Shown: positions 54,715 to 64,000, counted from the first letter of the stretch. The stretch: 64,000 nt of DNA from an uncultured delta proteobacterium (GCA_963808625.1 CAWEHK010000008.1:1-64000), one strand, 5' to 3'. Notes: generated from the sequence alone by a model not told the origin. Program-made: numbers and translations.

Positions 54715-55269
54715 CACGGAGATTATATCAAGGAGGATTATTATGACCTTATCTAAGAAGGTGTTCATCAGTTACGACAAGGCGGATACTACGTTCGCTC
54801 ATCATTTATCTGAAGATCTAAAGCGTTTAGACGTGGAAGTCTGGATTGCCCCTGAAAGTATTCTGCCCGGCGAAGCTTGGGTCGATGCGATCAACGTATT
54901 AAGAATTTCGGTGTGGCGCGGGCAAGACGGAGAACTCTCATAGCAGTGCGGACTGAGCCGCCACACAATTCTGGGTTGAACTAAGCCGGGCGGGACATCT
55001 TATTTGGAGTTTGAATACCTGAGGTACCTGAAGGGGGAGTGTGTTTTGACCGGAGAGGGGGACAAAAAGGACAGGACGATGTGTGTGAGGGGGTGAAATG
55101 AGTGTGGTGCACCGAATTGGGACTCCCTTCTGAGGAGAAAAAGGCATCATTCATCTTTGCCTGAGTATTGTTGCCATGAGAACGGCGCAATCGTCCCTTG
55201 TAGCTAAAAGGAGTCTTTTTGCACCGCCCGTTCCTTGCTACTCAAGAAGAACCCCATCGAGAGCCGGTA

Positions 55270-56361
55270 TTATGGAGGCAATCGACCCATGGGTTTAAGA
55301 ACCTCAACATGTATCAGGATGGTCCCGCACTTGGGGCAACGCGGAGCATCCATTTGTTCTTTGGCATCTGAAGAATCTCCTTTTGTCTTGGCTTCAGTCG
55401 GGCCCGCGGCGAGCAGTTCTTTTACCCTTCTTAGCAAATGGCGATTGCCGGGAGCCAAGAAACCATAATACCTGACCTTGATGAATCGATCCGGCAAGAT
55501 GTGGCATAAAAACCTGCGGATAAACTCCTCGGCACTGATCGTACAAAGCTTGATCCGGCCGGTGTCCGGCTCCTTGTACTCGAAAGTGACCCTGCCGTCT
55601 TCCAGTTTGCGGATGCGATTGTTCGTGATGGCTACGCGAAAGATGTAGGGAGCGAGATACTGGAAGGCTTCCTCTCCAGACCCCACAGGCTCACAGTCAA
55701 CCACCCATTCCTTTTTCCACGCGCCGGGATCGATTTCGAGGAAGAGATCGGTTTGTTTAAGCTCATCTCGGAACTTGGCTCTAAAAAGCATGGCGAGTGG
55801 CTTGGTGTGAAAAAGGAAGTCCTTGCGTGATGAAAGCCACTTACTGCCATCGCATGACATGCCTCCTCCGGGAACGAGGTAGTGAATGTGGGGATGATAC
55901 CAAATGTCCCGTGTCCAGGTCTGGAGGACACCCACCATGCCGATGAGTCCTCCGATGAATCTGGGATCTTTTGCAATCTGCTGCATGGCTTCCGCCGAGG
56001 TACGAAAGAGGATATTGTAGAGGAGCTTCTGGTGCCGGCGCACCAGGTTCCGGAATTCCTCGGGAAGAGTGAATGTCACCATGAAATAGGTGATGGGGAG
56101 CAGCAAATGCTTTTGGCTCTCCAGCCACACTCGTGCCTGATCGTTCTGACATTTGGGGCAGTGCCTGTTCTTGCAGGAGTGGTAGCTGTAGCGGTGTTCG
56201 GCGCATGTCTCGCAATAGTAGACATGGCCCCCCATGGCCTCGGTTCGGCATTGCTCGATGTCGTCCATGGCCTCAAGATGGCTCGGGAGCATTCGATGGG
56301 AGAACTTTTCCCGGTACTCAGGTCCATGAAGGCGGAAGATATCCGCTACTTCCGCTTTCAC
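55270..56361 (-). CDS. IS91-family rolling-circle (Y2 HUH) transposase
   Basis: SCKNRHCPKC zinc domain, HPHIH (HUH), YLAPY, VRYYG. Confidence 0.93.
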   Translation of the reverse strand: MKAEVADIFRLHGPEYREKFSHRMLPSHLEAMDDIEQCRTEAMGGHVYYCETCAEHRYSYHSCKNRHCPKCQNDQARVWLESQKHLLLPITYFMVTFTLPEEFRNLVRRHQKLLYNILFRTSAEAMQQIAKDPRFIGGLIGMVGVLQTWTRDIWYHPHIHYLVPGGGMSCDGSKWLSSRKDFLFHTKPLAMLFRAKFRDELKQTDLFLEIDPGAWKKEWVVDCEPVGSGEEAFQYLAPYIFRVAITNNRIRKLEDGRVTFEYKEPDTGRIKLCTISAEEFIRRFLCHILPDRFIKVRYYGFLAPGNRHLLRRVKELLAAGPTEAKTKGDSSDAKEQMDAPRCPKCGTILIHVEVLKPMGRLPP

Positions 56362-57224
56362 AGATCACCCATGATTTGATTGATGGCCTCAACTGCAATG
56401 CTTTCGGCTCGCACGGTCAAGTGGGTGTAGATGGCCGTGGTGGTTGGGGAATCGTGCCCCAGATACTCCTGGATGAGACGAAGGTTGACTCCGGCTTCGA
56501 GCAAATGAGTAGCCCACGAGTGGCGAAGCGTATGCACACTGGCCAGCTTATTGACCCCGCTCTCCTTGAGAGCTTCCTTGAAGGTGATCTGTACACTGCT
56601 CTTTGGCATGGACTCGGTTGCTCCGGGCATGTGGATGCCGCCGCGACCCGGTGCGGGGAAGATAAGGTTGGGATTGCGATGAGTGGCCCAGTAGCGTCGC
56701 AGGATCTCAAGAGTGGTCTTGGGCAGGGGGACATAGCGATCCTTGGCGCCTTTGCCATGGCGTACATGAATGAGCATCCTTGAGCTATCGATATCGGTAA
56801 CCCGAAGGTGTGTGCCCTCCTGTAGGCGCAGTCCGCATGAGTAGATGGTGGTGAGGCATGCTCGATAGCGGTCCAATCGGATGCAGTTCAAGATCTTTCG
56901 GACCTCTTCGATGCTCAGGACGACGGGAAGCTTTTTCTCTCGGGGAGGCCGGACGAAGGTGAGGGTGCTCCAGTCACGTTTTAAGGTGTGCCGGAAGAAG
57001 AACTTGATCCCGCAAAGAGCAATGGTGCTGGCAGTTCTGGAAAACTTTTTGACGTTCTTGAGATAAAGAAAATACTGGCGAAGCTCTTCATCTGTGACTT
57101 GATCGGGAGATTTGTGATAGTGTTCGGAAAGCTTGCGCACTGCCCTGACGTACATTTTCTGAGTTGTGTCAGACATGCCCCTGAGTTGAAGATCCTCGAT
57201 CATTCTCTTTCTGAGCTCAGTCAT
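56358..57224 (-). CDS. Tyrosine recombinase with N-terminal SAM-like domain
   Basis: GLR, GKGAKDR, HTLRH, LGH....T.IYTH; ATGA-coupled to tnp. Confidence 0.93.
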   Translation of the reverse strand: MTELRKRMIEDLQLRGMSDTTQKMYVRAVRKLSEHYHKSPDQVTDEELRQYFLYLKNVKKFSRTASTIALCGIKFFFRHTLKRDWSTLTFVRPPREKKLPVVLSIEEVRKILNCIRLDRYRACLTTIYSCGLRLQEGTHLRVTDIDSSRMLIHVRHGKGAKDRYVPLPKTTLEILRRYWATHRNPNLIFPAPGRGGIHMPGATESMPKSSVQITFKEALKESGVNKLASVHTLRHSWATHLLEAGVNLRLIQEYLGHDSPTTTAIYTHLTVRAESIAVEAINQIMGDL

Positions 57225-58320
57225 GGCTATACCTCCTTGGAGTTTGGGTGAAGGGTTGACACTCCAAGTATAGGCATGCTGGACTCTTCAGAGAATTGTC
57301 GGGATTCACTCGGGGGCTGGCAGTGCGGCACTGCGCGTAGCGCTTAGTTCAACCGAGGGTTGGAGCGGAGTACCCACGTGATTACGGTGCTTACACCGTC
57401 GGCACTAGAATCAGAGTGGGTGAGAATGGAGACAAACGTGGCAATCGCCTTAGAACGAAAAGGGAAACTACAGGTAATCCCTCTCGATGTCATGTCTTGT
57501 GATCCGCCCTCTCTTTGGACAAGCTATCAAACGATTTCTTTCCAGTCCAATTATAAGGAGGGTCTCAGCAAGCTTGCCGATATTTTGGAAATCCGCGCTA
57601 CACCTCCCCAAATAGCCGGTGTATTGAAATCTGGTGCGATTTCAGACCTCAGGGCGGTAACCGTTCTGGAGCCTGAAGGAAACCTAGCGGCAGAAGTGAT
57701 GGACCTATCATCCGAGTTGCAGCGGGAATCAAGTCAAGGAGACCGGACCACACCTGAACTGCCACAAGTGATGAACCAAGAGCGGCCTTCCATCAAGACC
57801 AAAATCACCTTGAAGCATTGGGTAGCTATTTTGGGCCTGATCGTGGCCATCTTTGCGCTTCCATGGATTTGGGAGAAGTTGACCTCCAACCCGCCTCCCC
57901 TGCCAGCAAGTGAGACCGTAAAGGAGTTGACCCCCACCCCGCCTCCCCCGCCACCACGTGAGACCGTAACTGTATACCCGCAAATCGGGCAGGATAAAGA
58001 TAGAGGTCAATATACTTCCATCAAGAACACTTTAGCCAAGTCTCGATTCACGGTGATGCCACTGGAGGTTTTGAACCGCAGAATCAGTCGTAGTGAAATT
58101 CGGTATTGCAATCCAAGCAATACTGAAGATGCCACCGCACTAAAGAGTCTCCTTGAGTCAAAAGGCTTTGGCGAACTTGGCCTAGTGAATATCAGCGATT
58201 GCGACGCCAAAGCGAATCGAAACATCCTTGAGCTCTGGGTTCAATCCAGCAATTGATGCTGCGTGATGCCAAACAATTACCGAAGACTCTAACGAGTGAC
58301 GAGACGAGTGGGGTCGGGCC

Positions 58321-58474
58321 TAATGCCGTTAACTTAAGGAAAATCTCGTCGGCCACGTCGTCATCCCAGGAAAGGCTTGGTCTGGAAGACTTTGAAAACA
58401 CACCATTTCGCGTTTCGCCTGAATGGCGCCAAGGTGTCTCCACATCAGGGTGAGAGCTTAAGTTAACGGCATTA
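58321..58474. mobile_element. IS4-family MITE
   Basis: Perfect 18-bp TIR TAATGCCGTTAACTTAAG; 9-bp target duplication GGTCGGGCC at 58312-58320 and 58475-58483. Confidence 0.85.
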
Positions 58475-58945
58475 GGTCGGGCCAAGCTAGGTGTCCTATG
58501 TCCCAGGAAAACCGTTCAGGATAAAGGGCTTTTTTGACTTTAGAAGTGCATTTTTGATGGGGAAATTGACCGTTTAAGGCAAAGAGTAATAGGATATGGC
58601 AAGAGCCAAACGGTATTTCCTGTCTGGATATGCGTGACATCTAACTCATCGGCGTCACAAGAAGGAATTTCTCCTCAAGTTCGCAAGGCGCAAGGGGCCG
58701 CAGGCGATGGTTCCACTGGCGGTTCGAGGCAAAGAAACGTTATGGTCTGCGGGTTCTGAACTACATGGTCATATCCAAATAGATCCATGCTACGGAGATT
58801 GACTATGAACGACAACCCGAACGGAGACACATCCCACGAAATCACTTAGCATCATTACCAAAGAAGGCTACTCGCGCGCTGCCATGGAAGACGATGTGCA
58901 TGGAAAAGCAAAGGAATGTCGTGTGTCTGCAGTAGGCGTGCCTGG
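58475..58945 (+). repeat. Repeat unit 1: RAYT element end, RAYT 5' relic (58596-58788) and GH75 5' relic
   Basis: MARAKR...HLTHR.HKKEFLLKF...FEAKKRYGLRVLNYMV.S with stops; near-copy at 59623-60082. Confidence 0.8.
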
Positions 58946-58961
58946 CGAGCAGGGTCGGGCC

Positions 58962-59622
58962 GTAAGCGCCGGGATAAACCGGCATAGAGTAGGGGATGAA
59001 AGAGCCCCACATGAAAGGAGGAGCTGCTCCATCGTGGCCCCGAGTCATGTGCGGGTAGCCGTGAGGTTACACGTGATGCAGTTGACAGGGGAAAACGCAG
59101 GCCAGCCATTGAGCTCCGAAATCACCCATCCGGGATGCCGACCTTGTGGTCCGAGGGGGAAGGCAATACTGGATGAGGGCGTTAGACAGCGAGCCCTCGC
59201 CAGGTCCCGCGGAGTCTAAGACCCTGTGCATGCGTGGACAGTCTATGCTCGAGAACCGGGAGATCTCCATAGCCTCTGGGGGCATCATCGCAGAGCGGTC
59301 GGGGAAGGCCTGTGGCCATAAGCCCGATGTGAACGCTATGGAGAAGTCAGACATCGGCGTAGTACCGAAGAAGGAGCCGAACAACGCACAGTGGCGGCGG
59401 AGGCTCTGGAGGGAAGGCCGGTGACCGAGGGGAATTCTGTAAAGCCCGACTGGGACCTGCACACAGTGGCAGGAGTAAACATTGATCGGACTTGACAGAA
59501 TACGTGAAACAGCAGAAATCAGCGACTTTGCGTCATTAACCCAAGGTAGGAGCCGTATGAGATAATTCCTCACGTACGGATCTGTGCGGGGGGTGCCGGG
59601 CGACCGGCATTCCTACCGCGAT
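58962..59622 (+). ncRNA. ORF-less group II intron (class E-like), 661 nt
   Basis: DV GAGCCGTATGAG...CACGTACGGATC (59550-59582); DVI with bulged A ending CCTACCGCGAT; IEP N-terminal relic MEKSDIGVVPKK; flanks rejoin to GGTCGGGCC|AAGC. Confidence 0.9.
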
Positions 59623-60082
59623 AAGCCAAGTGTTCCATGTCTCAGGAAAACCTTTCAGGATAGAGGGCTTTTTTGATCTTAGGAGTGCATTTTTGATGGA
59701 GAAATTGACCGTTTAAGGCAAAGGAGTAAAGGGATACGGCGAGAGCCAAACAGCAGTCTTTATCCGGCTATGCGTGACATCTAACTCATCGGTGTCACAA
59801 GAAGGAATTTCTCCTCAAGTTCGCATGGCGCAGGGGGCCGCAGGCGATGGCTCCACTGGCGGTTCGAGGCAAAGAAACATTATGGTCTGCGGGTTCTGAA
59901 CTACATGGTCATATCCAAGTACATCCATGCTACAGAGATTGACTATGAACGACAACCCGAACGGAGACACATGCCATGAAATCACTTGGCATCGTTACCA
60001 AAGAAGGCTACTCGCGCGCTGTTATGGAAAACGATGTGCATGGAAAACCAATGGAATATCGTGCACTTGTAGTAGGCGTGCC
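59623..60082 (+). repeat. Repeat unit 2: RAYT element end, RAYT 5' relic and GH75 5' relic
   Basis: Colinear with 58484-58945 by eye. Confidence 0.8.
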
Positions 60083-60176
60083 AGTCTTGAGAGTACAAGA
60101 CCACAGGTGACAGCGATAGGAAACCTTGACCATCTTGGATGACTTGGGTGAGGTTATCAGAAGGAACGGATAAACC

Positions 60177-60410
60177 GTGAAATTTGAACTCATCAGCCAA
60201 ATCGAAGGGATCGAGGTCATCGCGGTCGGGACCAGCATCCGCAATTTGGCTTATCTTGAAAAGATTTATGGCTCGGGGCGATGGAGAAAGCTCAAGGGCA
60301 GAGCTCATGCCCGACTCCCCAATGGAAACATCAGGTGGGTTGAGTTACCCTGGTACGAAGCTCATGGGATTGGCCGTAAAGATATAAAAATTAAGCGTTA
60401 TATGGAATGA
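60177..60410 (+). CDS. Small basic putative toxin domain
   Basis: YG.GRWRKLKG...E..WYEAHGIGRK..KIKR; paired with the downstream acidic ORF. Confidence 0.6.
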   Translation: MKFELISQIEGIEVIAVGTSIRNLAYLEKIYGSGRWRKLKGRAHARLPNGNIRWVELPWYEAHGIGRKDIKIKRYME

Positions 60411-60414
60411 GACA

Positions 60415-60654
60415 ATGATTAAGCACAAAACACATTTTGCCATCTGCGTTGATAATACCGACTACGAAGCTTCTCTGGTCTTGAGAAAGATCTATGAGAT
60501 CATTCCGGATGAGGCGGCTGCCAGGGACGATCTCTTAAGAATTGTGGATGAGAGCGGGGAGGACTACCTCTATCACAGGAGCCAGTTCGTGGTGGTGGAG
60601 TTTCCAGTAGAAGTGGAGCATGCATTGCTCGCTGCGCAGGGTATGACAGCGTAG
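60415..60654 (+). CDS. Small acidic putative immunity/antitoxin protein
   Basis: L...KIYE...RIVDESGEDYLY...F motif. Confidence 0.6.
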   Translation: MIKHKTHFAICVDNTDYEASLVLRKIYEIIPDEAAARDDLLRIVDESGEDYLYHRSQFVVVEFPVEVEHALLAAQGMTA

Positions 60655-60657
60655 CGG

Positions 60658-60862
60658 TAACTCATCGCTGTCACAAGAAGGAATTTCTCCTCAAGTTCGC
60701 AAGCGACCGCGGGCGATGCCTCCGCTGGCTGTTCGAAGCAAAAAAACGATATGGACAGCGTGTTCTGAGTTACATGGGCGCATCCAACCACATCCATTTG
60801 GAGCACAAGTGGAGTGAGAGCATTGCCGTAGGAAGCAGCAATTTTGTCGAAAGGATGAAGGG
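60658..60862 (+). pseudogene. Third RAYT (Y1/HUH transposase) relic, internally deleted
   Basis: HRCHKKEFLLKF...YMGASNHIHL fused to the C-terminal KWSESIAVGS..FV. Confidence 0.75.
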
Positions 60863-60899
60863 TGGATTACTAACCGCAACTCGAACGGAGACGCATCCT

Positions 60900-61532
60900 A
60901 TGAAAACACTTGGCATCATTTCCAACGAAGGCTATTCGTGCACGGTCATGGAAGACGACGAAGGGCGCGTTTTTTACACAGCAGATGGCGATATTGATGC
61001 TGATGGAGCGAACGGCCAGAATGGAGCTCCAGCCGCCTATAGAGCCGACGATAAGGGTACGGAGAGTCTCGCCAATGGCGGGATGGCGATCCGCGACGGG
61101 AAAGTCATCTGCGCGAATTCCTGGGCGCGGGATATCGTAATTCTCGGGCCAGACAATGAGCCCAAGATTTTCCCAGGCGGTATCATCGCGTCTTGCACAT
61201 GGTATCGCCACCCCGGCAAGCCAGCCAATGACCCGGCGGCTTACGTCGATGCCGAAACGGTGCCCTACATCGTCGTTCCTCCGCTCATTATCCAAGCCAC
61301 AGCCGGCGTGGTGCGCGGATGCAAGGCCCGCGTGACCTGGCGCAGCAAATCCGTCGATTGCGTCGTTGCCGACAAAGGCCCGAGGAACAAAATCGGTGAG
61401 TTAAGCATTGCCGCAGCCCGTGAGATCGGTCTGCCGTCCAGTCCCCGCAGCGGCGGAACGGACAAGCCCGAAATTTTCTATGAACTGTGGCCAGGCGTCG
61501 CAGCGCCAGGTTTCGTGCTCCAACCAGCGTAA
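60900..61532 (+). CDS. GH75 (fungal-type chitosanase-like) protein
   Basis: DIDADG, VDAETVPYIVVP, VVADKGP..KIGELSIA. Confidence 0.8.
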   Translation: MKTLGIISNEGYSCTVMEDDEGRVFYTADGDIDADGANGQNGAPAAYRADDKGTESLANGGMAIRDGKVICANSWARDIVILGPDNEPKIFPGGIIASCTWYRHPGKPANDPAAYVDAETVPYIVVPPLIIQATAGVVRGCKARVTWRSKSVDCVVADKGPRNKIGELSIAAAREIGLPSSPRSGGTDKPEIFYELWPGVAAPGFVLQPA

Positions 61533-61599
61533 TGGCCATTTGGGGCGGGTGGGGTCGGGTTCACTGCCCAGGCAATGCCTATGGAGATGCAACACCAAT

Positions 61600-61826
61600 A
61601 AAGCACTCATTCTTATTCAGATAGGCTCTCCAAATCCCTGCTTTGCGGATGCTGATTAATGCCCAACCAACTTTTCGGGTTGCTCAGAGAAGAAATTTAT
61701 AGGACACCATGGCAGAGCGATCCTGCGTGAACATACAGAGCAAAAAAGGAAAGGCCAGGACCTACCAGGTAAGGCAAGTGCGCTCAAGGCCTTCGAGAGG
61801 TTGAAATTGGAGCATGGCACTGAAAG
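61600..61826 (+). pseudogene. hicA: HicA-like toxin relic
   Basis: Fragments YRTPWQ.DP.VNIQ.K.GKA..YQVRQV.LKA across frameshifts, upstream of hicB. Confidence 0.65.
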
Positions 61827-62143
61827 ATGATCGTTACACTTACCGGGTTACATGGTCTGAGGACGATAAAGAGTACGTGGGTTTGTGCGCGGAATTCCCC
61901 AGTTTGAGCTGGCTGGCGCGTACTCCTGAGGCAGCCCTGAAAGGTATTCGCAAGGTCGTTGCAGAGGTCGTTGTGGATATGAAAGACAACGGCGAGCCCC
62001 TCACAGTGCCCATTGCATCCAGACAGTATAGTGGCAAATTCGTGATCCGGGTTCCCCCTGAAGTACATCGCAACCTGGCAGTCCAGGCTGCAGAAGCCAG
62101 CGTGAGCTTGAATCGTTTGGCCGGTTCAAAGCTGGCTCAGTAG
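61814..62143 (+). CDS. hicB: HicB-family antitoxin
   Basis: YTYRVTWSEDD.EYVG.CAEFPSLSW; YSGKF..RVPPEVHR.L. Confidence 0.85.
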   Translation: MALKDDRYTYRVTWSEDDKEYVGLCAEFPSLSWLARTPEAALKGIRKVVAEVVVDMKDNGEPLTVPIASRQYSGKFVIRVPPEVHRNLAVQAAEASVSLNRLAGSKLAQ

Positions 62144-62196
62144 CATGAAACCCGCATAAACAGTCATGACTGCATGCCGAAAAAAAAGATTGGCGG

Positions 62197-62236
62197 TTGA
62201 CACCACTCCTGGTATGGGCTTACAATGTAGCTACAT
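62197..62236 (+). promoter_or_regulatory. Sigma70 promoter with overlapping palindromic operator for mazEF
   Basis: TTGACA-18 nt-TACAAT; perfect palindrome ATGTAGCTACAT at 62225-62236. Confidence 0.65.
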
Positions 62237-62256
62237 AATATCGGGAGGATTGTCTA

Positions 62257-62505
62257 ATGAAGACGCGCCTAATTCGTATTGGAAATTCTCGTGGCATCCG
62301 ACTGCCAAAGCCGCTCATCGCTCAAGCCGGCCTGACCGACGAGGTGGAACTGCATGTAAGAGAGGGAGCCATAGTGATCGAGGCCACCTCCAAACCGAGG
62401 GGTGGATGGGCTCAAGCTGCCAAAGATATGCATGAATGCGATGACGATCTGCTGTTAGATCCACCTGCGCCTACCCAATTTGACGAGAAGGAGTGGGAAT
62501 GGTAG
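62257..62505 (+). CDS. mazE: AbrB/MazE antitoxin
   Basis: IRIGNSRGIRLPK...R.GW. Confidence 0.9.
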   Translation: MKTRLIRIGNSRGIRLPKPLIAQAGLTDEVELHVREGAIVIEATSKPRGGWAQAAKDMHECDDDLLLDPPAPTQFDEKEWEW

Positions 62506-62834
62506 TGGCTGGAGATGTTCGCAGAGGTGATGTTTTCCTGATCAGCCTGGACCCGACTCGTGGGGGTGAGATCCAGAAGACCCGCCCTTGTGTAATCGTC
62601 TCGCCGGATGAACTCAATGCCAATTTACGGACATTCATTGTTGCGCCTCTCACGACGGGCGAGCATCCTTATCCCTTTCGGGTGCCCTGCAAGTTTCAAG
62701 GCCGTTCAGACCATATCGTTCTCGATCAAATTCGCACTGTGGATCGTGAGCGGTTGGAACGGCGACTGGGAAAGCTTTCCTCATCTACCCTCGGGCGTGT
62801 TTTGGCAATTTTGCAGGAGATGTTCACACCATAG
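62499..62834 (+). CDS. mazF: MazF/PemK endoribonuclease toxin
   Basis: LDPTRG.EIQKTRPCVIVSP, APLTT, DQIRTVD..RL. Confidence 0.92.
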   Translation: MVVAGDVRRGDVFLISLDPTRGGEIQKTRPCVIVSPDELNANLRTFIVAPLTTGEHPYPFRVPCKFQGRSDHIVLDQIRTVDRERLERRLGKLSSSTLGRVLAILQEMFTP

Positions 62835-62937
62835 CTATGGCCTGACCTGCCGCCCAAATGGTTTCAGCTGTTTTCGAGTGGTGTCAGGCAAAGCTAAATA
62901 TTCCATGTCTCAGGAAAACGTTCCAGGATCAGATCAT

Positions 62938-63243
62938 ATGAGAGAGGAAAGAATTAAGCCTGTTCATCCCGGTGAGGTCCTCTTAGAGGAGTTCCTTAAG
63001 CCCATGGGGATTAGCCAGAACAAGCTGGCGCTTGATATACGTGTTCCGCCGCGCCGCATTAACGAGATCGTGCACGGAAAACGCAGAATTACGGCAGATA
63101 CAGCTCTACGTCTTGCGCGCTGCTTTGGCACATCTCCGCAGTTCTGGCTAGGCCTTCAGATGGACTACGATCTTGACGTTGAGGAAGACAGGCTCGGCGA
63201 TAGGCTGCAACACGATGTGCGCCAGTATGCAGCTACCGGTTAA
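62938..63243 (+). CDS. higA: HigA-family antitoxin, orphan (no higB upstream)
   Basis: PVHPGEVL.EEFL, RINEIV.GKR.ITADTALRL, FWL.LQ..YDL. Confidence 0.9.
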   Translation: MREERIKPVHPGEVLLEEFLKPMGISQNKLALDIRVPPRRINEIVHGKRRITADTALRLARCFGTSPQFWLGLQMDYDLDVEEDRLGDRLQHDVRQYAATG

Positions 63244-63245
63244 TT

Positions 63246-63308
63246 ACGATCAAGGGCTTCCAGTGGACGCTCGCTTTGCTCGCGCCAATGAAGCACGCGC
63301 CGTTATGC
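63246..63308 (+). other. attC-like site with a degenerate 5' core
   Basis: GCTTCCAGTGGACGCTCGCTTTGCTCGCGCCAATGAAGC stem-loop ending in GTTATGC. Confidence 0.7.
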
Positions 63309-63331
63309 TCAAATACCAGAGGATGAAACCG

Positions 63332-63589
63332 ATGCCAACAATACTTTTAATACTCGGGTGGAGAGTGTTCTTCTACACCAATGAGGGGAATGAACCCATC
63401 CATGTCCATTGCCGCAAAGGAGACATGGAATGCAAATATTGGCTGGATCCCCAGAGATTTAATATTGAGGAGGCTTTTGCCTATAATGTCTCACCAGCAG
63501 ATAAGAGGCAGATCAGGAAAATCATCTATGAGCATTTCGAATATATCGAACAGCAATGGGATGAGTTTCAAAGGAGGTCACATCAATGA
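63332..63589 (+). CDS. DUF4160 protein (TA toxin-like)
   Basis: MPTI...GWR.FFY.NE..EPIHVH. Confidence 0.85.
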   Translation: MPTILLILGWRVFFYTNEGNEPIHVHCRKGDMECKYWLDPQRFNIEEAFAYNVSPADKRQIRKIIYEHFEYIEQQWDEFQRRSHQ

Positions 63590-63843
63590 GGAAACATCAT
63601 GATATCAAAAACGTGACGTTTGAAGGTGACGCCCTGGTTTTGACTATCGACGGTGAGGAAAGACGATTCCAACTGAAGGAGATATCCCCTCTCCTTCAAA
63701 AAGCGTCAGATCAAGAGAGAAACACTCTCGAAATCTCACCCTCGGGCTATGGGATACATTGGCCTCTATTAGATGAAGACATTTCCATCGATGGATTGCT
63801 CGGAATTTATCATGCACCGGAATGGCAACGAAAGAGCGCATAA
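63586..63843 (+). CDS. DUF2442 protein (TA partner)
   Basis: L..AS..ER...EIS..GYGIHWP.LDEDISIDGL; ATGA overlap with DUF4160. Confidence 0.85.
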   Translation: MRKHHDIKNVTFEGDALVLTIDGEERRFQLKEISPLLQKASDQERNTLEISPSGYGIHWPLLDEDISIDGLLGIYHAPEWQRKSA

Positions 63844-64000
63844 CCAGGAGGGAGAAATGGTAAGCCCATGCAGGCAAGCATGGAGTTCATCACCACCTCG
63901 CGCTGCGCGCTTTTCGCTTATTCAATCCACAAAAAGAAAGCACAAAGAAGTGTCCACTTCCTTTTCGTAGTTCAAAACCAGGTCAAAATGAGTGGAGCGT

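What the first reader, a model, noticed from the sequence alone, without database searches (positions are those of the whole stretch)
58952..59640. ORF-less group II intron whose EBS1 matches the terminus of a RAYT element
Seen: a 661-nt intron with intact DV and DVI but a deleted IEP sits between GGGTCGGGCC and AAGC. Removing it restores the element-end motif found uninterrupted at 58475. The Id3-like loop (CCTT-GTGGTCCGA-GGGG) holds GGUCCGA at 59148-59154. This pairs with the exon end TCGGGCC (one G-U) and would pair perfectly with TCGGACC. Established: EBS1-IBS1 pairing sets retrohoming specificity, and ORF-less introns can move in trans. Inference: this intron lineage is specialised on the multicopy GGGGTCGG(A/G)CC ends of Y1/RAYT elements, making it a parasite of another mobile element inside a cassette array.
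Basis: partly seen in the sequence, partly recalled or inferred. Interest (0 to 1): 0.85.

Follow-up and report, generated by a model that had tools for sequence, protein, structure and literature searches.

The report
ORF-less intron in RAYT terminal repeat
A mobile self-splicing-type intron that has lost its own enzyme gene sits exactly inside the end-repeat of another, decayed mobile element, and its relatives in many bacteria aim at the same kind of repeat by matching a short guide loop to it.

Summary
Window 58962-59622 (+) is a 661-nt group II intron (Rfam D1 model 158.5 bits; DV/DVI 38.4 bits) whose reverse-transcriptase gene is reduced to its first ~12 and last ~9 codons. It lies between GGGTCGGGCC and AAGC, and the same junction stands uninterrupted at 58475-58487. 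The loop GGUCCGA (59148-59154) is EBS1. Across 37 parsable homologues the loop covaries with the last six exon bases (26 pair 6/6; 0 of 10,000 shuffles reach the observed mean).

The target is the terminal inverted repeat of a RAYT-like (Y1 transposase) element. Intact elements in a same-genus genome and in Desulfosarcina variabilis are flanked by GGGG(T/A)CGGGCC...GGCCCG(A/T)CCCC. In a Syntrophomonadales genome, 12 of 14 intron copies sit inside the REP palindrome that flanks its single RAYT gene.

Three caveats apply.
- The array is not an integron.
- The window's RAYT copies are pseudogenes.
- No cognate reverse transcriptase is in this 84.6%-complete assembly, so present-day mobility is unshown.

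I found no prior description in the held literature. I rate it a new variant of a known kind.

The parts
58952..58961 (+). 5' exon GGGTCGGGCC, the outer part of the terminal inverted repeat of the RAYT-like element. IBS1 is TCGGGCC (58955-58961). The upstream GGG is a putative IBS2.
58962..59622 (+). ORF-less group II intron, 661 nt, from 5' GUAAGCG to GAU 3'
58999..59224 (+). Domain I core (Rfam RF02005, full-length match)
59119..59130 (+). Asymmetric internal loop AAAUCACCCAUC. It is the putative EBS2 (CCC at 59125-59127, opposite the exon GGG). This is an inference and no covariation was shown.
59146..59154 (+). EBS1 loop GUGGUCCGA, with EBS1 GGUCCGA at 59148-59154
59482..59549 (+). Remnant of the intron-encoded protein in domain IV: about 12 first codons and about 9 last codons plus the stop, joined out of frame. 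1258 nt are deleted relative to L007.
59548..59622 (+). Domains V and VI. DV has the AGC triad and a 2-nt bulge. The bulged A is at 59615, 8 nt from the 3' end.
   Evidence: read
59623..59735 (+). 3' exon: the inner part of the terminal repeat (AAGCCAAG) and the roughly 112-nt leader of RAYT-like copy 2
59736..60085 (+). RAYT-like pseudogene remnant, copy 2 (start codon now ACG; only the N-terminal part is recognisable)
58484..58944 (+). Leader (58484-58595) plus RAYT-like pseudogene remnant, copy 1 (ATG at 58596, in-frame stops)
58475..58487 (+). Unoccupied junction GGTCGGGCC|AAGC
58311..58321 (+). Further copy of GGGGTCGGGCC, preceded by ACGAG(TG) short tandem repeats. It is separated from 58475 by an inverted-repeat-bounded insert.

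Best explanation
The feature is a non-autonomous group II intron. It is an internal-deletion derivative of a IIB-like retroelement whose intron-encoded protein has reverse-transcriptase and maturase domains but no endonuclease domain. It is inserted, in the sense orientation, 11 nt inside the left terminal inverted repeat of a decayed RAYT-like (Y1/HUH transposase) element.

Shown:
- the ribozyme domains, the deletion and the exact boundaries;
- EBS1 (GGUCCGA) is complementary to the last 7 exon bases, and EBS1 covaries with the exon across the lineage;
- the target motif is the inverted repeat or REP that flanks RAYT-family genes in three unrelated genomes;
- the same deleted form sits at two or more different sites.

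Inferred:
- The lineage retrohomes by reverse splicing into GGGG(A/T)C(A/G)NNNN|A. The last 5-6 bases are read by EBS1. The constant GGGG(A/T)C is read by a short EBS2 (CCC), by the protein, or by both.
- Because the protein lacks an endonuclease, cDNA synthesis would be primed at replication forks, where REP or terminal-repeat DNA is single-stranded.
- Each host's repeat is tracked by changes in EBS1.
- The ORF-less form spread with protein supplied in trans by a full-length sibling.

In this genome both partners look inactive. The RAYT copies are pseudogenes, and no cognate protein is assembled.
For: Ribozyme. RF02005 scores 158.5 bits and RF00029 38.4 bits.

Sibling with protein. L007 carries a 440-aa IEP: TIGR04416 at 328.5 bits (cut-off 300), Pfam RVT_1 only, and its best PDB matches are group II intron RTs.

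Same deletion at different sites. G000:C8, G000:C21 and G007:C267 carry the same deleted form at 92-93% identity, while their flanks are unalike beyond the motif and leader.

EBS1-IBS1. Of 60 distinct loci, 37 have a parsable EBS1 hairpin: 26 pair 6/6, 7 pair 5/6 and 4 pair 4/6. The 24 distinct combinations average 5.38 pairs against 3.57 when shuffled, and 0 of 10,000 shuffles reach the observed mean.

Target conservation. Of 79 5' exons, 63 carry NGGG[AT]C at positions -11 to -6.

Link to RAYT ends.
- L171 is an intact Y1_Tnp gene (34.4 bits, cut-off 23) between GGGGTCGGGCC and GGCCCGACCCC.
- L173, L174, L172 and L176 show the same motif at the expected end.
- In D. variabilis (L212) a 252-aa homologue lies between GGGGACGGGCC|ACGCCAA and TTGGCTT|GGCCCGTCCCC.
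- G061 has one RAYT gene (NF047646, 83.9 bits, cut-off 80) flanked by four REPs, TGCATCAnGGGGACAGTCCCCnTGATGCA. It holds 90 intact cores against 0 for the control pattern. Of its 14 intron 3' exons, 12 complete that palindrome.

Leader. The leader that follows the motif recurs after the intron in C8, C21 and G007.
Against: - No cognate IEP is in G000. The best match is 34% identical and belongs to an unrelated full-length intron of type RF02012 at C36. The genome is only 84.6% complete.
- The 5' end is non-canonical (GUAAGCG) and DV/DVI scores just under Rfam's gathering score, so splicing competence is unproven.
- GGGTCGGRCC as a 10-mer is not over-represented in G000 (39 found, 38.5 expected). 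The 12-mer pattern is not enriched in G062, G063 or G064.
- The five PF01797 genes of G000 are flanked by other REPs, not by this motif.
- Most of the 30 Y1_Tnp loci examined in G062-G065 show no such motif.
- Four of the eight strong leader copies in G000 precede no RAYT remnant.
- Sites in G016 and G026 (...GGGTC|) and L052 (GCGGAACTTGG|) have no shown link to a RAYT.
- EBS2 pairing is only 3-4 bp and shows no covariation.
Confidence: 0.75

Rival explanations
1. The association is incidental. The intron needs GGGG(A/T)C, read by a fixed EBS2 or by the protein, plus any 5-6 bases that EBS1 can drift to match. It therefore lands on whatever intergenic sequence fits. RAYT ends and REPs are hit only because they are G-rich and repeated, not because the lineage is specialised on them.
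For: The motif occurs at chance frequency in G000 and is not enriched in three of four other genomes. There are 52 distinct 11-mer exons among 79. L052 lacks the GGGG entirely yet pairs 6/6 with EBS1. Several sites have no known RAYT link.
Against: In G061, 12 of 14 copies lie in one REP family, which also flanks the sole RAYT gene. In three unrelated genomes the same motif is the inverted repeat around RAYT-family genes. In G000, both intron copies and the G007 copy sit at the motif-leader junction, although roughly 39 other 10-mer sites were available.
Confidence: 0.18
2. The intron is a dead relic copied passively. It inserted once and was multiplied by duplication or recombination of RAYT ends, so the shared exons reflect shared ancestry of the flanks and not homing.
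For: The window holds a tandem duplication of the RAYT remnant with 1140-nt spacing. Both partners are decayed in G000.
Against: The two G000 introns are 93% identical, whereas their flanks share only the motif and a leader that is conserved in blocks only: mean column identity is 59% across 8 sequences, two of which include about 44 nt of near-identical intron 3' end. Only one of the two tandem RAYT copies carries the intron. EBS1 covaries with different exons across genomes.
Confidence: 0.05
3. The intron is an integron-associated intron that targets attC sites, like the group IIC-attC introns or the IIB introns reported in CALINs.
For: The neighbourhood is a run of small toxin-antitoxin modules. 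G000 has integron-integrase genes elsewhere, two of them above the TIGR02249 cut-off. IIB introns directly after attC sites have been reported (PMC7923331; abstract, section 7 and discussion part 1 read).
Against: A crude scan for R''/R' pairs found no attC in C8:57000-100000 on either strand. The adjacent tyrosine recombinase is paired with an IS91-type Y2 transposase inserted in a TIR-domain gene. EBS1 pairing is 6-7 bp and the intron is in the sense orientation, unlike IIC-attC introns.
Confidence: 0.02

Closest known systems
RmInt1 of Sinorhizobium meliloti (bacterial class D, endonuclease-less IEP), which homes into the insertion sequence ISRm2011-2. Recalled from memory; only search listings of PMC4615759 and PMC4181065 were seen.
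   Same: A IIB-like ribozyme with an IEP that lacks the endonuclease domain. Homing is guided by EBS-IBS pairing into another mobile element. Remnant and divergent copies occur.
   Different: RmInt1 sits inside an IS, not in a terminal repeat or REP, and it has a canonical 5' end. Here the target is the repeat that a Y1/RAYT enzyme's gene is flanked by, and EBS1 is retuned in each host.
Group IIC and IIC-attC introns (PMC12584367 introduction; PMC3001079, abstract start seen in the listing)
   Same: They are specialised on repeated, structured intergenic DNA (terminator hairpins, attC sites) and avoid genes.
   Different: IIC introns read a DNA hairpin plus a very short IBS1, insert downstream of it, and in the attC type lie antisense to the cassettes. 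Here there are 6-7 bp of EBS1 pairing, insertion is inside the repeat, the orientation is sense, and no attC is present.
ORF-less bacterial group II introns served in trans by a sibling's IEP (Zimmerly and Semper 2015, PMC4424553, passages read; the Trichodesmium example in PMC12584367)
   Same: The IEP is deleted, the ribozyme is kept, and there are multiple copies. Relatives with an IEP exist (L007).
   Different: No cognate IEP is in this assembly. The deleted form is found at different sites and also in another genome (G007), and comparable short forms (678-798 nt) occur in 5 of 80 loci elsewhere. This points to repeated MITE-like spread.
Insertion sequences that target REP sequences, such as ISPpu9, ISPpu10, ISPa11 and IS1397 (Tobes and Pareja 2006, PMC1525189; one table passage read, which also lists a P. 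putida group II intron as 2/9 REP-associated)
   Same: One mobile element uses REPs as a safe, multicopy landing site.
   Different: Those are DNA transposons. Here the recognition is RNA-DNA base pairing by a retroelement, with visible covariation.
Group IIB introns in integrons and CALINs of halophiles (Sonbol and Siam 2021, PMC7923331)
   Same: A IIB-type intron in the same orientation as an array of small toxin-antitoxin cassettes, next to IS200/605-type elements.
   Different: Those sit after attC sites and showed poor exon conservation. Here the target is a defined RAYT terminal repeat that covaries with EBS1.

Membership tests
Group II intron (ribozyme) | Domain I with an exon-binding loop | tested here: met
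   RF02005 at 158.5 bits (gathering score 49), full-length match. EBS1 covariation is shown.
Group II intron (ribozyme) | Domain V (AGC triad, 2-nt bulge) and domain VI with a bulged A | tested here: met
   RF00029 at 38.4 bits, E 8.5e-6, just under the gathering score of 40. The AGC triad and the bulged A at 59615 are read directly.
Group II intron (ribozyme) | Boundaries 5' GUGYG ... AY 3' | tested here: not met
   The 5' end is GUAAGCG, or GAAAGCG in 77 of 80 relatives. The 3' end AU fits. A sister lineage in G006 has GUGCG. I read this as a lineage-wide altered terminus, not as decay.
Group II intron (ribozyme) | Self-splicing or protein-assisted splicing | not testable with these tools
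   Only a head-to-tail junction in contigs of one RNA library and of one run whose library type is unknown. This is ambiguous.
Mobile (autonomous) group II intron retroelement | RT/maturase ORF in domain IV | tested here: not met
   1258 nt are deleted relative to L007, leaving only terminal codons. No cognate IEP is in G000.
Group IIC-attC introns | Insertion in an attC site, antisense to the cassettes, with hairpin-guided recognition and a very short IBS1 | tested here: not met
   A crude scan found no attC. The orientation is sense. IBS1 is 6-7 bp.
RAYT / REP system (target element) | Y1 (HUH) transposase of the REP-associated type | tested here: met
   G061 gene: NF047646 at 83.9 bits (cut-off 80). 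G006 gene: PF01797 at 34.4 bits (cut-off 23), but NF047646 at only 60.1 bits, below its cut-off. The two proteins are 29% identical, E 5e-18.
RAYT / REP system (target element) | Gene flanked by inverted copies of its repeat | tested here: met
   L171, L212 and L181.
RAYT / REP system (target element) | Intact gene in the window | tested here: not met
   The window copies have stops and are truncated. PF01797 finds nothing in the window at E <= 0.01.
RAYT / REP system (target element) | Repeat dispersed in many copies (REP/REPIN) | tested here: inconclusive
   G061 has 90 cores against 0 for the control. In G000 there are only about 12 motif-leader sites, and the 10-mer is at chance frequency.

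The most novel reading that the evidence does not exclude
A cross-phylum group II intron lineage, marked by the unusual 5' end GAAAGCG, is an obligate parasite of RAYT systems. It homes into the REPs or terminal inverted repeats that Y1/RAYT transposases act on, retunes EBS1 to each host's repeat, and repeatedly sheds its protein gene to give MITE-like short forms that are mobilised in trans. It may exploit the single-stranded or hairpin state of these repeats at replication forks, which is the same substrate state that the RAYT enzyme needs.
Probability: 0.45. Interest if true: 0.75.

Novelty: new variant of a known kind. Interest (0 to 1): 0.62.

Why it matters
Group II introns are known to hide in other mobile DNA. 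[quoted passage not shown]

A lineage aimed at RAYT terminal repeats and REPs would add a new layer of 'parasite on parasite'. Its guide loop visibly co-varies with the repeat in hosts from different phyla. That makes it a natural experiment on how retroelement target specificity evolves.

It would also give a candidate set of natural EBS1 variants for retargeting work, and a possible influence on REP/RAYT dynamics. The recurrent ORF-less forms bear on how often bacterial introns become non-autonomous, which reviews describe as rare (PMC4424553, passages read).

Tried and rejected
- Integron/attC reading. TIGR02249 matched the window's recombinase at only 123+72 bits against a cut-off of 265. 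Pfam shows that the recombinase is paired with an IS91 Y2 transposase inside a split TIR-domain gene. A crude R''/R' attC scan found none in the array. I could not run IntegronFinder's own model.
- Rfam on the leader and flank (58200-58960, E up to 5) gave no match.
- 'MITE with target duplication' at 58320-58474. A second copy (82%) at C17 lacks the motif flanks, and the C36 site shares only about 18 nt. This reading is left open.
- PF01797 genes of G000 and of G062-G065 were checked as a general test. Most are not flanked by the motif. Only the specific RAYT-like subfamily is.
- Motif over-representation. It is at chance level in G000 for the 10-mer. The 12-mer counts are mixed: G000 15 against 4 for the control, G065 21 against 8, G063 18 against 21, G064 9 against 14, G062 2 against 6.
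- Intron class (A-F, CL, ML) could not be assigned. No reference set was available, and searches for the Rfam family name or for Syntrophobacter introns gave nothing useful.
- EBS2 covariation: none seen.
- Public runs. No run held half or more of the sampled words (best share 0.20), and in the four runs laid the RNA contigs covered only the intron, not the window's flanks. There is therefore no evidence on expression of this particular copy.
- Earlier notes of this scan held nothing on this place, sequence or theme.
- Simon et al. 2008 (PMC2525955) is not held, so its catalogue of ORF-less introns and its supplements were not seen.
- Prior-art searches in the held library for a group II intron with REP, RAYT or REPIN found no description of such targeting. 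Subscription literature was not covered.

Full report
**What is there.** Window 58962-59622 (+) is a group II intron. Rfam's domain-I model RF02005 matches 58999-59224 end to end (158.5 bits, E 1e-45). The DV/DVI model RF00029 matches 59548-59622 (38.4 bits against a gathering score of 40, E 8.5e-6). The AGC triad, the 2-nt bulge of DV and a bulged A at 59615 are readable in the sequence.

Against a full-length sibling in a related genome (L007), positions 225-553 and 557-661 of the window intron align on either side of 1258 extra bases. Those bases hold a 440-aa ORF. The ORF is a group II RT/maturase: TIGR04416 at 328.5 bits (cut-off 300), Pfam RVT_1 only, no endonuclease domain, and group II RTs as nearest solved relatives. 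In the window only its first ~12 and last ~9 codons remain (59482-59549), joined out of frame. 'ORF-less by deletion' is therefore correct.

**Boundaries.** The intron lies between GGGTCGGGCC and AAGC, and GGTCGGGCC|AAGC stands uninterrupted at 58475-58487 in front of a paralogous copy of the downstream sequence. Two further lines fix the same boundaries.
- In genome G061, 5' exons end in ...TGCATCAnGGGGACAGTCC and 12 of 14 3' exons begin with CC(G/A)TGAT(G/T)CA. Removing the intron therefore restores a perfect palindrome that also occurs unoccupied.
- EBS1-IBS1 pairing abuts the junction (see below).

The 5' end is therefore GUAAGCG here. It is GAAAGCG in 77 of the 80 relatives fetched, though my search pattern began at AAGCG and so selected this sub-lineage. 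A sister lineage (72% identical, at least 9 full-length copies in G006) has canonical GUGCG two bases later in the alignment. The odd terminus is a lineage trait, not local decay. Position 2 does vary (U here, G in one copy).

**EBS1.** GGUCCGA (59148-59154) lies in the 9-nt loop of the hairpin that the Rfam consensus places there. It pairs with the exon end UCGGGCC, with one G-U.

I collected homologues from the window's own genome, from 60 relatives (12 of 61 genomes, G000 included, have a match) and from a pattern scan of one genome per species (108 stretches, 80 fetched). Of 60 distinct loci with enough sequence, 37 have a parsable EBS1 hairpin. The other 23 are truncated, interrupted or divergent at that point. 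Among the 37:
- the six loop bases pair with the last six exon bases 6/6 in 26, 5/6 in 7 and 4/6 in 4;
- there are 24 distinct combinations, from 17 EBS1 and 19 IBS1 sequences;
- these average 5.38 pairs against 3.57 (sd 0.22) after shuffling, and 0 of 10,000 shuffles reach the observed value.

The sequences are related, so the shuffle overstates independence. The compensatory examples are nevertheless plain: CAGUCC/GGACUG, UGCCAC/GUGGCA, CGGUUC/GAACCG, CAUAAU/AUUGUG and ACUUGG/CCAAGU.

Upstream of IBS1 the exon is nearly constant. G occupies -10 to -8 in 75-77 of 79 exons and C occupies -6 in 74 of 79. GGGG[AT]C is present in 52 of 79 and NGGG[AT]C in 63 of 79. The only candidate EBS2 is CCC in the internal loop 59119-59130. 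I saw no covariation there, so whether this constant part is read by RNA, by protein, or is simply a property of the target stays open.

**What the target is.** In G000 a profile of the ~110 nt that follow the junction (a 'leader') finds 8 strong and about 4 weak copies. All are preceded by GGGG(T/G)CG(G/T)RCC. Two of them (C8:59623 and C21:2503) are occupied by the intron. The leader also follows the intron in G007, and weakly in G008.

In the window, at C3:15676 and at C3:29553 the leader runs into remnants of a Y1-transposase-like gene (MARAKRYF...HLTHR...). Intact versions settle what this is.
- In a same-genus genome (L171) a 268-aa ORF scores PF01797 Y1_Tnp at 34.4 bits (cut-off 23) and NF047646 'REP-associated tyrosine transposase' at 60.1 bits, below its cut-off of 80. 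It is preceded by GGGGTCGGGCC plus a 108-nt leader, and is followed directly after its stop codon by CTT-GGCCCGACCCC and short tandem repeats.
- L173, L174, L172 and L176 show the same motif at the expected end.
- In Desulfosarcina variabilis (a record named; L212) a 252-aa homologue lies between GGGGACGGGCC|ACGCCAACC and TTGGCTT|GGCCCGTCCCC, again with tandem repeats outside.

The motif together with A(A/C)GCCAA is thus a terminal inverted repeat of about 18 nt, and the intron inserts 11 nt inside it.

In G061 the target is a classical REP. The genome's single RAYT gene (NF047646 at 83.9 bits, above the cut-off) is flanked on each side by two copies of TGCATCAnGGGGACAGTCCCCnTGATGCA. The genome holds 90 intact cores (reversed control pattern: 0). 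Twelve of its 14 intron 3' ends lie in that palindrome, and the other two lie in longer hairpins that begin with GGGGACGGTTC. The G006 and G061 transposases are homologous (29% identity, E 5e-18).

The core inference stands, and it is broader than stated. The intron lineage is aimed at the ends of RAYT elements, and the lineage occurs in records titled as Desulfobacterota, Firmicutes (Pelotomaculum, Desulfotomaculum, Syntrophomonadales), Nitrospiraceae and Mariprofundaceae. Corrections:
- The intron sits at the left, promoter-side repeat of the downstream RAYT remnant.
- The motif-leader module also precedes other genes, such as a DruA-like ORF at C24.
- The 'cassette array' is a run of toxin-antitoxin and small genes (HicB, MazE/MazF, HigA-like, DUF4160, DUF2442) separated by this motif. 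D. variabilis has a similar run, with 9 same-strand copies in 32 kb. My crude scan found no attC there, and the adjacent recombinase belongs to an IS91-type insertion in a TIR-domain gene.

**Mobility.** Three copies with the same deletion (C8, C21 and G007:C267; 92-93% identical) sit at sites whose flanks share only the motif and a leader that is conserved in blocks only (mean column identity 59% across 8 aligned sequences). This argues for movement after the deletion, and therefore for protein supplied in trans. Short forms of 678-798 nt occur in 5 of the 80 loci elsewhere.

G000 itself holds no cognate IEP. The best match is 34% identical, and it is the IEP of an unrelated full-length intron of Rfam type RF02012 at C36. 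The assembly is 84.6% complete, so a sibling may simply be unassembled. All four or five RAYT-like copies in G000 are broken. Present activity in this genome is therefore doubtful.

**Public reads.** No run held the window's flanks. Contigs of three metatranscriptomes and of one run of unrecorded library type cover only the intron, at 88-99% likeness. One 658-nt contig from an RNA library (depth 36) and one from the unrecorded run join the intron's last base, through GA, to its third base. That is a head-to-tail junction of the ORF-less form. It could be an excised circle or a tandem DNA copy. G006 does carry head-to-tail full-length dimers in DNA. I draw no conclusion from this junction.

**Against the reading.**
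- The 10-mer motif is at chance frequency in G000 (39 against 38.5 expected), although 11 of the 39 sites are followed by AAG.
- The 12-mer is not enriched in three of four other genomes.
- The ordinary RAYT and IS200 genes of G000 and of G062-G065 mostly lack the motif.
- Some insertion sites (G016, G026, L052) have no shown RAYT link.

A rival in which the intron merely needs GGGG(A/T)C and lands wherever it fits therefore keeps about 0.18.

**Prior knowledge.** Reviews and recent papers state that bacterial group II introns mostly sit in intergenic DNA or in other mobile elements, and that IIC introns target hairpins (PMC12584367, abstract and introduction read). They also state that ORF-less bacterial introns are rare and usually co-reside with siblings (PMC4424553, passages read). 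IIB introns have been seen after attC sites in toxin-antitoxin-rich arrays beside IS200/605 elements (PMC7923331; abstract, section 7 and discussion part 1 read). Insertion sequences that target REPs are known, and a P. putida intron was scored 2/9 REP-associated (PMC1525189, one table passage read).

Searches of the held library for group II introns together with REP, RAYT or REPIN found no description of EBS-guided homing into RAYT repeats. Subscription papers, among them Simon et al. 2008 and Toro et al. 2002, were not available. I rate this a new variant of a known kind.

Noticed in passing
window 54966-57362 (genes 55270-56361 and 56358-57224, minus strand): An IS91-family element (Y2_Tnp plus the Zn_Tnp_IS91 transposase, with an overlapping tyrosine-recombinase gene). 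It is bounded by 21-nt inverted repeats and splits a TIR-domain gene: the N-terminal part is at 54744-54930 and the rest at 57360-58256.
   Followed up: partly
window 58962-58968; L046-L125: The whole sub-lineage starts with G-A/U-AAGCG instead of GUGYG, which is two extra bases relative to the sister lineage with GUGCG. It is nevertheless found at many independent sites, so this altered 5' terminus appears compatible with mobility.
   Followed up: partly
window 59622 joined to 58964 (runs X17 and X1); L010/L017 in G006: Environmental contigs show head-to-tail junctions of the ORF-less intron. One assembled relative carries full-length intron dimers with no exon bases between the copies. These could be RNA circles or tandem DNA insertion. 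Unresolved.
   Followed up: partly
window 58257-64000; G063:C1:3425544-3457124 (L213): Runs of small toxin-antitoxin and unknown genes are separated by the RAYT terminal-repeat motif plus a leader-like stretch, all on one strand. This looks like a cassette-type array built on RAYT repeats and not on attC sites.
   Followed up: partly
window 58283-58310; G000 C39:4772-4840, C3:29460-29545, C24:2815-2850; L171:2328-2350; L212:60-125: Short tandem repeats (units of 5-15 nt, different at every site) abut the outer side of the terminal repeat. Their origin is unexplained.
   Followed up: no
window 58320-58474: A 155-nt stretch bounded by 20-nt perfect inverted repeats (CCTAATGCCGTTAACTTAAG) sits at the same junction, with GGTCGGGCC on both sides. 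This resembles an insertion with a 9-bp target duplication. A copy 82% identical at C17:40349-40511 lacks those flanks.
   Followed up: partly
G000 C3:101-171 and C35:7486-7553 (L004, L003): A 60-nt piece matching intron positions 79-138 (a domain-I hairpin) directly follows GGGTCGGGCC at two loci that share the same upstream flank. It is either a remnant or a separate small element.
   Followed up: no
G000 C36:54260-56480 (L031:762-2974): A full-length group II intron of another type (Rfam RF02012; DV/DVI 62.1 bits) with a 518-aa IEP that is only 34% identical to the sibling IEP of the window's intron.
   Followed up: partly
L212:1060-1201 (D. variabilis): The left terminal repeat of the intact RAYT-like element lies about 15 nt after the last repeat of a CRISPR-like array (repeat ...GTTCCCCACATGCGTGGGGATGAACCG).
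   Followed up: no
L002:1262-1420 (G000 C21): GTTCCCAAGC...GCTTGGGAAC palindromes (another REP-like family) lie just upstream of the second intron copy, downstream of a phoU-like gene.
   Followed up: no
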